DNA of 64,000 nucleotides, from positions 10,168,001-10,232,000 of the forward strand of contig NC_135663.1 of assembly GCF_964188315.1 (NCBI RefSeq). The letters are read 5' to 3'. This DNA comes from Podarcis muralis (Eukaryota). Position numbers: made by a program. This document shows, piece by piece, positions 56,801 through 60,700 of this stretch (positions are counted from its first letter, which is position 1; every line of letters starts with the position of its first letter).

Positions 56801-57389
56801 ACAATGGACCGGCCACCTGCTGAAAAAGTTTGCTGACGCCTGGCTTAGACTGCATTTCTACCTCCTGGTTGCAAAGGCAATACAGTAAACTCCTTTCTTT
56901 TTACATGAATAAACAGAAAGTAGCTGAAATGTTGAAACATTGTTTATTTATCAGATGGCAAACAGCACTCAAGACCTTTTCTTGATGACATGAAGACTAG
57001 TTGTAATAATGAGTTTTTATTTGATGTGATTATTCTCCCTATTTGCAGTTACATTATTAGGTATTTTGCCTTCATTTATATTTTTTACATACTTGCTATA
57101 GAATTATAATAATAAAAACTTCCTGGGGGAAAACTCTATGAAGTAGCTAAATTAATATTGTTTCTCTGGCTAGAACGCCCTGCAAAAAAATTCTCAGCCC
57201 ACTTTACAGTTAAAATTCTAACCAAGTATTAGAAAGGCAGTAGTGATATATGCGCAAGAAGCAGCAAGAGAAAATGGATGAATGAAGGAGAAGCAACACA
57301 AAAAAGGTAAATCAACAAGTACATTAGTATTTAGAGGATAAAAAGCAGGAAAGGTATAGAGCTAAGTGCTCGATTTACTTCAGCAAGTA

Positions 57390-57428
<39 letters not shown>

Positions 57429-57695
57429 TTATTATTTATACCCTGCCCATCTGACTGGGTTTCCCAGCCACTCTGGGCGGCTTCCAACAGAATATTAAAA
57501 TACAATAGTCTATTAAACATTAAAAGCTTCCCTAAACAGTGCTGCCTTCAGATGTCTTCTAAAAGTCTGGTAGTTGTTTTTCTCTTTGACATCTTAATTA
57601 CTATTAAGAGAATGGGGAGCAAAAAGTAAACGTGGGAAGAAGTATGGAGCTAAGAGAAAAGTGATGGCTTTCAAGGAAAATTTGTCTGGAATGGT

Positions 57696-57738
<43 letters not shown>

Positions 57739-60700
57739 ACTCCATTATACTGGCACCTTTCTGGCAGTTAGGAGATGGGAAATGATTTATTTGAAATTAT
57801 AGTGGCGTGGGAAAGGAAAGTGAAAGGAGCAGGAATTTCCCCAGGGGATGTCAGAAGTGGGTGAAGCTAGCCAATAAATACTGGCCCCAGAGCTCTCTGA
57901 CTCCACCACACAGCAGCACATTTCCTCCTCTCACAGCAGCCGCAGCAAGAGCAGCAAAGATGATCCAGAAGTCCTGCCTCGTAATCCTGATGCTTGTCCT
58001 TTGCACAGCTCTCATACACGGTAATATTCTTTTGCCTTCTTTTCTTCCGTATGATATTACATTAATTTGCCTCCTTTTCTTCCATATAAGATTGCATTAA
58101 TTGCATTTTCTCTGCTTCCACATTTTGCAATGCAATCACAATGTGGCAATAATGTTGACTAATGAGGAAAGCTCCTAGAATAATAGAGCAACAAAGTAAT
58201 GATAATGGGTGGTATTCAACTATTTATTTTACCGTTGCAATTAATGGACCTGACTTAAGTCGAGTTTATTGATTACAGTGGATCAGTTTGGAGTAGGTGA
58301 ATATCATACAAAGCTGTCAAGCAGGGAAATTGGATAGTACAGTGGTACCTCAGGTTACATACGCTTCAGGTTACAGACTCCGCTAACCCAGAAATAGTGC
58401 TTCAGGTTAAGAACTTTGCTTCAGGATGAGAACAGAAATTGTGCTCTGGTGGCGCGGCGGCAGCAGGAGGCTCCATTAGCTAAAGTGGTGCTTCAGGTTA
58501 AGAACAGTTTCAGGTTAAGAACGGACCTCCGGAACAAATTAAGTACTTAACCTGAGGTACCACTCAGTGGCGTAGCGTGGGGGGTGCAGGGGGGGCCAGC
58601 CGCACTGGGCGCAACATCTGGGGTTATGGCAAATCCACGGGTTAGGGGGCGCAGATTACTTGCCTTGCCCCGGGTGCTGACAACCCACGCTACGCCACTG
58701 GTACCACTGTACAATGTAATAATGACTATCACCACAATAGTGTTGTCAAACTGGGAAAGGTCCCGCTGCACTGGGGAGCCTTGGGACAACCTGTCCCTCA
58801 ACCTAACCTAACCTGTGGAATTAAAGAATTGTAGAGATGGAAGGGACCCTGAGGGTCATCTAGTCCAACCCCGTGCAGTGCAGGAATCAATTACAGATGG
58901 ACACCCAACCTTTGCTTAAAAACCTCCAAGGAAGGAGAGTCCACCACCTTCTGAGGGAGTCCATTCCACTGTAGAACAGCTCTCACCATCAAAAAGTTAT
59001 TCCTCATGTTTACTTGGAATTCCCTTTCTGGTAACGAAGCCACTGGTTCGAGTCCTACCCTCCAGAGCAGCAGAAAACAGACTTCCATGTGATAGCCCTT
59101 GAGATATCTCCACTTAGTCTCATTTTTTTCCAGGATAAACATACCCAACTCCCTCAATTGTAAGGTTTGGTTTCCAAACCCTTGATCGTCCTGGTCGCAC
59201 ACATTCCAGCTTGTCGTTATCTTTTAAAAATTGTGCTGCAGGGTTGATGTGAGAGTCAAATGGGGGAAAGGAGAACCATATTTGCTGCCTTGAGTGCCTT
59301 GGAAGAAAGGTGTGATATAAATATAACTAAATCGGGTTTTTTGGGGGGGAACAATGTCATCTCCCCCCTCCTCCCAAAGAAAATCTCCAAGCACTAAAAA
59401 GATTGTGGCTTACCACTTTCCCATTCGTTGCTCTGTCTGAAACAGCTGAAGAGAAGGTTTCGAAGCAACGCCTCCCCTCTCACATCACACCCGCAACCCT
59501 GTAAAGTTATATTACGACTGAGCGTACCCAAACATGTAACTCAAGGGCGACATTCTTCTGTTGCAGGAATGCCAACTACCAGCAGAGGGCGTTGCCTCTG
59601 TCGAACAAAAGGAATGATGCTGAGCTCTGTCCCTATTCAACGTGTTGCTGAAGTTGAATTTCACCGGCCCAGCAGCAGCTGCGATCAGGAGGAACTGGTG
59701 TAAGTAGTGGGTGCTGGTTGTGCTCCAGAAGCCTTTACTAATGTACTTGTTGATTTACCTTTTTTGTGTTGCTTCTCCATTCATCCATTTTCTCTTGCTG
59801 CTTCTTGTGCATATATCACTACAGTACTGCCTTTCTAATACTTGGTTAGAATTTTAACTGTAAAGCGGGCTGATAATTTTTTTGAATGATAGAATCATAG
59901 AGTTGGAATAGACCACAAGGGCCATCGAGTCCAACCCCCTGCCAAGCAGGAAACACCATCAGAGCACTCCTGACATATGGTTGTCAAGCCTCTGCTTAAA
60001 GACCTCCAAAGAAGGAGACTCCACCACACTCCTTGGCAGCAAATTCCACTGTCGAACAGCTCTTACTGTCAGGAAGTTCTTCCTAATGTTTAGGTGGAAT
60101 CTTCTTTCTTGTAGTTTGGATCCATTGCTCCGTGTCCGCTTCTCTGGAGCAGCAGAAAACAACCTTTCTCCCTCCTCTATATGACATCCTTTTATATATT
60201 TGAACATGGCTATCATATCACCCCTTAACCTCCTCTTCTCCAGGCTAAACATGCCCAGCTCCCTTAGCCGTTCCTCATAAGGCATCGTTTCCAGACCTTT
60301 GACCATTTTGGTTGCCCTCCTCCCTTGAAGGGCGTTCTATAAATATTCTGGCTAGAGAAGCAATATTAATTTAGCTACTTCATAGAGTTCCCCCCCAGGA
60401 AGTTTTCATTATTATAATTCTGTAGCAAGTATGTAAAAAATATAAATGAAGGCAGGAATCTGCAAAATACCTAATAAAGTAACTGCAAAGAGGGAGAATA
60501 ATCGCATCAAATAAAAACTCATTATTACAACTAGTCTTTATGTCATCAATAATGGTCTTGAGTGCTGTTTATCATCTGATAAATAAACAGTGTTTCAACA
60601 TTTCAGCTACTTTCTGTTTATTCATGTAAAAAGAGAGTTTACTGTATTGTCTATTACCGTATTTTTCGCTCTATAAGACGCACCAGACCACAAGACGCAC

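What the first reader, a model, noticed from the sequence alone, without database searches (positions are those of the whole stretch)
56878..60649. ~310-bp inverted repeats bracket the chemokine promoter plus exons 1-2: a potentially invertible cassette
Seen: AT-rich non-coding arms at 56878-57180 and 60330-60649 (roughly 90% identical by eye, two short indels) enclose exactly the ISRE/kB promoter, exon 1 and exon 2. Inference 1: recombination between the arms would flip 3.1 kb, switch the chemokine off and point the IFN-inducible promoter at FAM47E. Chemokine exon 2 ends in phase 2 (GT) and FAM47E exon 2 begins in phase 2 (A), so a spliced in-frame chimera would be possible, though a phase match has a 1-in-3 chance anyway. 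Inference 2: the arms are scars of a past inversion or TIRs of an element that captured these exons. Mundane alternative: two opposite-orientation copies of an uncatalogued repeat.
Basis: partly seen in the sequence, partly recalled or inferred. Interest (0 to 1): 0.65.

Follow-up and report, generated by a model that had tools for sequence, protein, structure and literature searches.

The report
Inverted repeat around lizard CXCL11 start
Two diverged, roughly 450-base inverted copies of non-coding DNA really do bracket the promoter and first two exons of a lacertid-lizard CXCL11-type chemokine gene, but they look like an old local duplication that is passively decaying, not a working genetic switch.

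Summary
The inverted repeat is real and larger than reported. The left arm is 56878-57329 (452 bp). The right arm is 59736-59884 plus 60329-60649 (470 bp), split by a young 444-bp 5'-truncated CR1 LINE. The arms match at 426 of 444 ungapped columns (95.9%), with 7 indels, K2P 0.042 and a longest exact tract of 44 bp. The spacer is 2406 bp, not 3.1 kb.

It holds the proximal ISRE/kB promoter and exons 1-2 of an intact four-exon CXCL11-like gene. Exon 2 is 100% identical to Podarcis lilfordi CXCL11.

Nothing supports an active switch. The arms show no homogenisation and the CR1 sits in one arm only. Identity tracts fall far below the usual recombination thresholds. The present orientation is the conserved, functional one.

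The arms occur only twice in the window and share both ends. They lack target-site duplications, terminal repeats and tails. I therefore favour a one-off local inverted duplication (0.55) over two copies of a dispersed repeat (0.3). Genome-wide copy number and cross-species orientation could not be checked. This is ordinary and of low interest.

The parts
56878..57329 (+). Left arm of the inverted repeat (452 bp, 31% GC, non-coding), about 630 bp upstream of the chemokine ATG
   Evidence: no internal repeats; no Rfam family at gathering score
57330..59735 (+). Spacer (2406 bp): 62 bp of unique DNA, a SINE (57392-57594), a (CA)n tract, the proximal promoter, exon 1, intron 1 carrying older SINE and CR1 fragments, exon 2, and 36 nt of intron 2
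57816..57880 (+). Proximal promoter motifs: ISRE GAAAGTGAAAG (57816), kB GGAATTTCCC (57832), TATA-like ATAAATA (57874)
   Evidence: pattern scan; pattern matches only, function not tested
57960..58020 (+). Chemokine exon 1 coding part (ATG plus signal peptide, 61 nt, donor GT at 58021)
   Evidence: 18 of 20 residues match P0001 by eye
59567..59699 (+). Chemokine exon 2 (133 nt, ends in phase 2; CXC motif R-C-L-C with no ELR)
   Evidence: Pfam IL8, E 0.0049, below cut-off because only half a domain; best solved-structure match CXCL11, E 0.019; 100% to P. lilfordi CXCL11
59736..59884 (-). Right arm, inner part (149 bp), pairs with 57183-57329
59885..60328 (-). Young 5'-truncated CR1 LINE inserted into the right arm after the duplication; absent from the left arm, which serves as the empty site
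   Evidence: 98.6% and 99.7% to two other copies in the window; open frame continuous with the longer copy at 39558-40280. The CR1 name is my recognition of the ORF2 C-terminus; Pfam found no family for it
60329..60649 (-). Right arm, outer part (321 bp), pairs with 56878-57182
62758..62830 (+). Chemokine exon 3, on the same strand and downstream, so the present orientation of exons 1-2 is the functional one
   Evidence: 22 of 24 residues match P0001 by eye
62982..63005 (+). Chemokine exon 4 coding part (7 residues plus stop)
   Evidence: identical to the C-terminus of P0001 and P0003
48958..49339 (-).
56063..56242 (+). Distal cluster of two tandem ISREs and two kB-like sites, outside the cassette
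   Evidence: 3 of the 5 ISRE pattern matches in the whole window lie in 56064-57816

Best explanation
The arms are the two copies of a single local inverted duplication of about 450 bp of non-coding DNA. One copy sits in intron 2, 36 nt after exon 2. The other sits about 630 bp upstream of the start codon of a lacertid CXCL11-type gene. I infer a one-off replication or repair accident (a template switch, or a templated insertion copied from a nearby stretch). I date it to very roughly 10-40 million years ago from K2P 0.042 and assumed rates of 0.5-2e-9 per site per year. Since then both copies have drifted apart as neutral DNA, and a CR1 LINE later landed in one of them. The repeat has no function of its own. 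The gene works in the present orientation. The only thing the arms can do is serve as a poor substrate for a very rare homologous exchange that would produce a chemokine-null allele.

Shown: the anatomy, the divergence, the order of events (duplication before the CR1 insertion) and the intact gene.
Inferred: the mechanism of origin, the age, and the absence of function.
For: 1. In a sensitive BLAST of 56700-57500 against the 64-kb window, the arm stretch matches only its partner. The flanking MITE and SINE in the same query each hit other copies. The arms are 2 of 2 copies in the window.
2. Both ends of the two copies coincide to the base, and homology stops sharply at all four junctions. It does not resume beyond the adjacent MITEs.
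3. No transposon hallmark is present. The 20-nt flanks of each copy share no target-site duplication. The first 60 nt against the reverse complement of the last 60 nt score 7, so there is no terminal inverted repeat. There is no A-rich or simple-repeat tail and no TG..CA or TC..CTRR ends. There is no internal repeat structure.
4. At about 2% divergence per copy, a target-site duplication should still be legible.
5. The same 11 kb holds two more two-copy local inverted repeats: 55367-55571/55724-55928 and 50265-50472/51141-51352. Small local inverted duplications therefore seem to arise repeatedly in this region.
6. There is no homogenisation: 18 mismatches, 7 indels and a CR1 in one arm only.
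7. The gene is intact on one strand, with the same exon joins as annotated P. lilfordi and Zootoca vivipara CXCL11 proteins.
Against: Copy number outside this 64-kb window is unknown, because no eukaryotic genome collection was available. A low- or medium-copy repeat family would look the same here. With hundreds of repeat families in a lizard genome, some close inverted pair per window is expected by chance. For any one family the layout has at most about a 2% chance, but the finding was picked after the fact. The junctions show no clear microhomology that would mark a template switch. I could not tell which copy is the original. The age rests on assumed rates recalled from memory, and gene conversion would make it an underestimate.
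Confidence: 0.55

Rival explanations
1. The arms are two independent insertions, in opposite orientation, of an uncatalogued dispersed repeat about 450 bp long. They happen to lie on either side of the gene's 5' part.
For: The window is packed with interspersed repeats: 96 non-self repeat pairs in the self-BLAST. MITEs abut both arms, at 56526-52 on the left... precisely 56526-56852 and 60655-60922. One other close inverted pair in the window is a 7-copy SINE. Identical ends in both copies are what full-length elements would show.
Against: There are no further copies in 64 kb, while the neighbouring repeat families have 2-7. Despite only about 2% divergence per copy, there is no target-site duplication, terminal inverted repeat, LTR-type ends, Helitron-type ends or tail. 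The chance of this layout for a single family is at most about 0.02.
Confidence: 0.3
2. The arms are the inverted duplication left by a past inversion made by staggered breaks, as described for Drosophila inversions. To fit the intact gene, this would need an inversion followed by a re-inversion.
For: Inverted duplications of non-repetitive sequence at both ends of a segment are the described footprint of this mechanism: 17 of 29 Drosophila inversions (abstract of PMC1885836). The arms are non-repetitive within the window.
Against: The spacer is in the orientation that gives the conserved exon 1-2-3-4 gene. The annotated proteins of P. lilfordi and Zootoca join exon 2 to exon 3 in the same way. 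A single inversion would require a broken ancestor. Two successive events are less parsimonious than one duplication.
Confidence: 0.05
3. The cassette is a live or polymorphic inversion switch. Exchange between the arms flips the spacer in the germ line or in somatic cells. This silences the chemokine and drives a chemokine-FAM47E-like chimera from the interferon-responsive promoter.
For: The geometry and reading frame allow it. PMC2583991 (passages) reports exchanges through matching tracts under 50 bp between alpha-globin repeats only 5 kb apart. The arms here are 2.4 kb apart, with tracts of 44 and 43 bp.
Against: No dedicated recombinase is known for such a switch in vertebrates (established knowledge). 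The arms are not homogenised, and a CR1 insertion is kept in one arm only. Identity tracts are 3-10 times below the quoted thresholds. The inverted state destroys a conserved immune gene. The distal ISRE/kB cluster stays outside the cassette.
Confidence: 0.03
4. The arms act at the RNA level. If the distal ISRE/kB/TATA-like module (56063-56340) fires as an upstream promoter, both arms are co-transcribed and pair into a double-stranded stem of about 450 bp around exons 1-2. That stem would be an editing or innate-sensing substrate, or would alter splicing.
For: The distal module has a promoter-like layout (ISRE x2, kB x2, ATAAATA at 56333) upstream of the left arm. The arms are 96% complementary.
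Against: These are pattern matches only. No exon or open frame follows the distal module (read by eye). From the proximal promoter the left arm is not transcribed at all. No expression data were available.
Confidence: 0.03
5. The arms are the terminal inverted repeats of one large mobile element that captured the promoter and exons 1-2.
For: The element would have inverted ends of equal length with sharp outer boundaries.
Against: No target-site duplication flanks 56878 and 60649. The interior holds no transposase-like frame of 110 aa or more (one search lists only the CR1-type frames 58891-59223 and 59959-60336 there). Exons 3-4 of the same conserved four-exon gene lie outside.
Confidence: 0.01

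Closest known systems
Inverted low-copy repeats that mediate non-allelic homologous recombination inversions (recalled examples: human F8 intron 22 repeats, the FLNA-EMD inverted repeats on Xq28; general rules from PMC2583991, passages seen)
   Same: Two inverted copies of non-repetitive DNA on one chromosome flank a gene segment. An exchange between them would invert it and break the gene.
   Different: Those repeats are kilobases long and 99% or more identical, kept so by gene conversion, and both orientations are seen in people. Here the arms are 452 and 470 bp, 96% identical with 7 indels and an unshared LINE. The longest identical tract is 44 bp, and no second orientation is known.
Inverted duplications at inversion breakpoints from staggered breaks (Ranz et al. 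2007, PMC1885836, abstract seen)
   Same: An inverted duplication of non-repetitive sequence lies at both ends of a defined segment.
   Different: The segment here is in the ancestral, functional orientation, judged from the conserved gene structure. No inversion needs explaining.
Inverted pairs of interspersed repeats, such as Alu or L1 pairs, that occasionally recombine (recalled; PMC2583991 conclusion passage mentions Alu-mediated events)
   Same: Similar size class, similar divergence, and an occasional rather than programmed exchange.
   Different: The arms show no transposon ends, no target-site duplication and no other copies in the window.
Bacterial invertible promoter switches (fimS, hin type; recalled)
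   Same: On paper, a promoter-bearing segment sits between inverted repeats, and its flip would redirect transcription.
   Different: Those use short specific sites and a dedicated site-specific recombinase encoded nearby. Nothing of the sort is known or seen here. The resemblance is only geometric.

Membership tests
Recombination-competent inverted low-copy repeat pair | Two copies in inverted orientation on the same molecule | tested here: met
Recombination-competent inverted low-copy repeat pair | An uninterrupted identity tract at or above the minimal efficient processing segment (134-232 bp in mouse cells, 300-500 bp in human meiosis, as quoted in PMC2583991) | tested here: not met
   The longest exact runs are 44, 43, 38, 34 and 32 bp. 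The same paper notes exceptions under 50 bp for repeats 5 kb apart.
Recombination-competent inverted low-copy repeat pair | Arms kept alike by gene conversion | tested here: not met
   18 mismatches, 7 indels, K2P 0.042, and a 444-bp CR1 in one arm only
Recombination-competent inverted low-copy repeat pair | Both orientations found among individuals or species | not testable with these tools
   No eukaryotic genome or read collection was available
Transposable element copies | Target-site duplication flanking each copy | tested here: not met
   The 20-nt flanks of both copies were printed; no shared direct repeat
Transposable element copies | Characteristic termini (terminal inverted repeat, LTR TG..CA, Helitron TC..CTRR, poly-A or simple-repeat tail) | tested here: not met
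   The end-to-end inverted alignment scores 7. The ends were read from the alignment. There are no internal repeats.
Transposable element copies | Many dispersed copies | tested here: inconclusive
   There are 2 copies in the 64-kb window, both being the arms. The genome-wide count could not be made.
Inversion-breakpoint inverted duplication (staggered breaks) | The flanked segment is inverted relative to the ancestral order | tested here: not met
   Indirect: exons 1-2-3-4 are collinear on the plus strand, with the same joins as P. lilfordi and Zootoca CXCL11 proteins.
Site-specific invertible promoter switch | A dedicated recombinase gene and short specific crossover sites | not tested
   Only 5 of the 71 frames of 110 aa or more were scanned against Pfam. 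These gave FAM47, Sas10/Utp3, a reverse transcriptase and two without a family. No such system is known in vertebrates (established knowledge).
CXCL9/10/11-type (non-ELR CXC) chemokine gene | A CXC motif without a preceding ELR, the conserved later cysteines, and a chemokine domain | tested here: met
   Exon 2 carries R-C-L-C preceded by S-R-G, plus a third cysteine; exon 3 carries the fourth. Pfam IL8 on exon 2 alone gives E 0.0049, 17.5 bits, below the 21.3 cut-off because only half a domain was given. The best solved-structure match is CXCL11, E 0.019. Exon 2 is 100% identical to a protein named CXCL11 with precomputed PF00048. The joined protein was not searched.
CXCL9/10/11-type (non-ELR CXC) chemokine gene | Interferon and NF-kB responsive promoter | tested here: inconclusive
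   ISRE and kB pattern matches lie at 57816 and 57832, and in a distal cluster at 56063-56242. These are motif matches only.

The most novel reading that the evidence does not exclude
The arms still recombine at a low rate. Lacertid populations, or infected tissues, would then carry a second orientation in which CXCL11 is knocked out and its interferon-responsive promoter and signal-peptide exons are spliced in frame onto FAM47E-like. That would be a naturally occurring vertebrate inversion polymorphism toggling an interferon-stimulated chemokine.
Probability: 0.03. Interest if true: 0.55.

Novelty: new member of a known kind. Interest (0 to 1): 0.15.

Why it matters
As it stands, it matters little. 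It is one more small inverted low-copy repeat in a repeat-rich lizard intergenic and intronic region. It is useful mainly as a structural marker. The unshared CR1 and the arm pair give a relative time line, and the arms give a presence/absence character for lacertid phylogeny. It would matter only if the second orientation were found in real animals. The locus would then be a rare vertebrate case of an inversion that switches an interferon-induced chemokine off and makes a fusion transcript. The corrected anatomy (2.4-kb spacer, arm 36 nt from the exon 2 donor, CR1 in one arm) is what anyone designing that test would need.

Tried and rejected
1. Rfam scan of 55000-62000 at E up to 1. Nothing reached a gathering score. 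The only match inside an arm scored 18 bits (MIR854-like), which I take as chance.
2. tblastn of the three exon peptides, separately, against the window to find chemokine paralogues or an inverted pseudo-exon next to the left arm. Only self-hits were significant. This rejects the idea that the left arm is the intron 2 remnant of a head-to-head paralogue.
3. Probes made of the flanks of each arm, to see whether an arm interrupts a repeated element. There were no hits other than self.
4. Test whether homology resumes beyond the MITEs that abut the arms. It does not.
5. Search of solved structures with exon 3 alone, 24 aa. No match; the query is too short.
6. Pfam on the two CR1-type frames. No family was found, so the CR1 name rests on my recognition of the ORF2 C-terminus and the 3' repeat.
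7. The listing of cluster members for P0001, to see the other five members of its cluster. I did not pursue it.
8. A bacterial-type promoter and terminator scan of the 3' UTR. It is irrelevant to a vertebrate gene and found nothing.
9. Literature search for 'Podarcis' plus 'CXCL11'. One unrelated paper came up in the listing.
10. Literature search requiring four of five terms on inverted repeats, micro-inversion, exon, promoter and NAHR. Of 70 papers, the 8 listed included nothing on this locus. I found no printed description of this repeat in those two searches.
11. Not done: a genome-wide search of the arm and comparison with other lacertid genomes.
12. Not done: a search with the joined four-exon protein.
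13. Supplements of papers were not consulted.
14. The N runs (27532-27735, 41701-42007, 54413-54824) were left as they are.
15. The window is lizard, not human, so nothing was withheld on that ground.
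Full report
**What is there.** BLAST of 56700-57500 against the window, and of the window against itself, gave the same two pieces. These are 56878-57175 vs 60649-60346 (E 9.6e-109) and 57183-57329 vs 59884-59736 (E 2.2e-55).

The two pieces of the right arm are separated by 59885-60328. 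This stretch is 98.6% identical to 39917-40358 and 99.7% identical to 63693-64000. On the minus strand it carries an open frame that continues the frame of the longer copy at 39558-40280. I recognise that frame as the C-terminal end of a CR1-type LINE ORF2. Pfam gave no family for it, so the name is my recognition.

With this insertion removed, the left arm (56878-57329, 452 bp) and the right arm (470 bp) align end to end. There are 426 matches, 18 mismatches (13 transitions, 5 transversions) and 7 indel events covering 34 columns. Identity is 95.9% over ungapped columns and 89.1% over all columns. K2P is 0.042, the longest exact runs are 44 and 43 bp, and GC content is 31%.

However, the arms are half as long again as reported, the spacer is 2406 bp rather than 3.1 kb, and the right arm starts only 36 nt after the exon 2 donor.

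**The gene.** Exon 1 (CDS 57960-58020), exon 2 (59567-59699), exon 3 (62758-62830) and exon 4 (62982-63005) all lie on the plus strand, with GT and AG at the joins.
- Exon 2 alone matches Pfam IL8 at E 0.0049. That is below the cut-off because it is half a domain.
- Its best solved-structure match is CXCL11, at E 0.019.
- In the large protein collection it is 100% identical to 'C-X-C motif chemokine 11 [Podarcis lilfordi]' (96 aa) and 91% identical to two Zootoca vivipara entries.
- Compared exon by exon with that protein by eye, the window matches 18 of 20, 43 of 43, 22 of 24 and 7 of 7 residues.

The window therefore comes from a lacertid lizard close to, but apparently not, P. lilfordi, and it is not human.

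No second chemokine exon set exists in the window. The present orientation of the spacer is the functional one, and the exon 2 to exon 3 join is conserved in Zootoca.

**The neighbour.** The open frame 48901-49491 on the minus strand matches Pfam FAM47 (E 5.4e-17). Its exon part is 95% identical to 'FAM47E-like [Podarcis raffonei]'. The acceptor AG is at 49341-49340, and the exon starts with an A that completes a codon of the open frame.

The chemokine's exon 2 ends with two bases of a codon, and adding that A gives an uninterrupted frame into FAM47E-like. However, the annotated orthologue starts at the ATG 13 nt inside this exon, so the first bases are 5'UTR. I did not locate an upstream exon, so 'exon 2' is unverified.

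**Promoter motifs.** The proximal ISRE (57816), kB site (57832) and ATAAATA (57874) are inside the cassette. A stronger-looking distal cluster lies outside it, left of the left arm. It comprises two tandem ISREs at 56063-56090, kB-like sites at 56144 and 56233, and ATAAATA at 56333. Three of the five ISRE pattern matches in the whole window fall in 56064-57816. These are motif matches only.

**Transposon or local duplication?** The window is full of interspersed repeats, each present in 2-7 copies. The arm sequence occurs only as the two arms.
- Both ends coincide to the base in the two copies, and homology stops sharply.
- Homology does not resume beyond the MITEs that abut the arms (56526-56852; 60655-60922, the latter with apparent TA duplication, read).
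- Neither copy has a target-site duplication (flanks printed).
- There is no terminal inverted repeat (score 7) and no internal repeat structure.
- From the alignment, there are no LTR-type or Helitron-type ends and no tail.
- At roughly 2% divergence per copy, such marks should still be visible.

For a single dispersed family, the chance of exactly one further copy in the window, within 3.3 kb and inverted, is at most about 0.02. This is a weak argument, because the pair was noticed after the fact and a genome holds many families.

Two further two-copy local inverted repeats lie nearby: 55367-55571/55724-55928 (94.6%, 153-bp spacer) and 50265-50472/51141-51352 (78%). I therefore favour a one-off local inverted duplication (0.55) over two insertions of an uncatalogued repeat (0.3). 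The genome-wide count that would settle this could not be made.

**Is it invertible?** Nothing found suggests that it inverts. Recombining inverted repeats are kept alike by gene conversion. These arms instead carry 18 substitutions, 7 indels and a LINE in one arm only.

That LINE is much younger than the duplication. It differs from other copies by 0.3-1.4%, against 4.2% between the arms. The arms have therefore evolved independently for a long time.

The longest identical tract is 44 bp. The review PMC2583991 (passages seen) quotes a 20-fold drop in exchange when identity falls from 232 to 134 bp in mouse cells, and 300-500 bp for human meiosis. It also notes exchanges through tracts under 50 bp between alpha-globin repeats 5 kb apart. 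A very rare exchange therefore cannot be ruled out, and it would give a chemokine-null allele. No vertebrate recombinase is known for a programmed flip (established knowledge).

**Was it a past inversion?** Staggered-break inversions leave inverted duplications of non-repetitive DNA at both ends (abstract of PMC1885836). But the spacer is in the orientation that the conserved gene requires. A single inversion would need a broken ancestor.

Capture by a mobile element is also unlikely. No target-site duplication flanks the unit, and no transposase-like frame lies within it. Exons 3-4 of the same old gene lie outside.

**Age.** K2P 0.042 gives about 10-42 million years for assumed rates of 2e-9 to 0.5e-9 per site per year. 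The rates are recalled, not measured, and gene conversion would make this an underestimate.

**Limits.** No eukaryotic genome, read or transcript data were available. Two literature searches found nothing on this locus. The N runs were left untouched.

**Verdict.** This is a real but ordinary structural feature. The 'invertible cassette' reading is geometrically sound but unsupported.

Noticed in passing
window 56063-56340: A distal cluster of two tandem ISREs (56063-56090), two kB-like sites (56144 palindromic, 56233) and an ATAAATA (56333). The layout recalls mammalian CXCL10-type promoters (recalled). It lies outside the cassette, about 1.6-1.9 kb upstream of the chemokine ATG. No exon-like frame follows it.
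   Followed up: partly
window 55367-55928: A foldback structure: 205-bp inverted arms (94.6%) with a 153-bp spacer that itself holds a nested palindrome (about 55573-55675). The palindrome gives sub-threshold miRNA-like Rfam hits on both strands. Only these two arm copies exist in the window.
   Followed up: partly
window 50265-50472 and 51141-51352: Another two-copy local inverted repeat (78% identity, 669-bp spacer), between the FAM47E-like exon and the chemokine.
   Followed up: no
window 39558-40358, 59881-60328, 63691-64000: Three copies of one CR1-type LINE 3' end that are 98.6-99.7% identical to each other. This suggests a very recently active LINE family in this lizard. An older copy (77-79%) lies at 58818-59223 in intron 1.
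   Followed up: partly
window 59736-59826: The inner end of the right arm reads, on the gene's strand, like a strong 3' splice region: TACTAAT, a long pyrimidine tract, then CAG. It begins 36 nt after exon 2's donor (the CAG about 125 nt after it) and could be a cryptic acceptor. Stops follow in all frames, by eye.
   Followed up: no
window 9782-11377 (minus strand): A 531-aa uninterrupted frame with Sas10/Utp3 and Sas10 C-terminal domains (E 1.6e-19 and 3.5e-27). It appears to be an intronless UTP3-like gene.
   Followed up: partly
window 60655-60922 and 26603-26868: A 268-bp MITE with terminal inverted repeats and an apparent TA duplication, 94.8% identical between the two copies. One copy sits 5 bp outside the right arm. 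A different MITE (56526-56852, with a copy at 31982-32319) ends 25 bp outside the left arm.
   Followed up: partly
window 48958-49339 (minus strand): In the annotated P. raffonei orthologue, the FAM47E-like protein starts at the ATG 13 nt inside this exon. One search also returned a second, more distant FAM47E-like protein (P0020, 54% identity) from P. raffonei, with the same longest-contig length as P0004.
   Followed up: partly
window 27532-27735, 41701-42007, 54413-54824: Three runs of N. The last lies about 2 kb left of the left arm. They were not filled or looked up.
   Followed up: no
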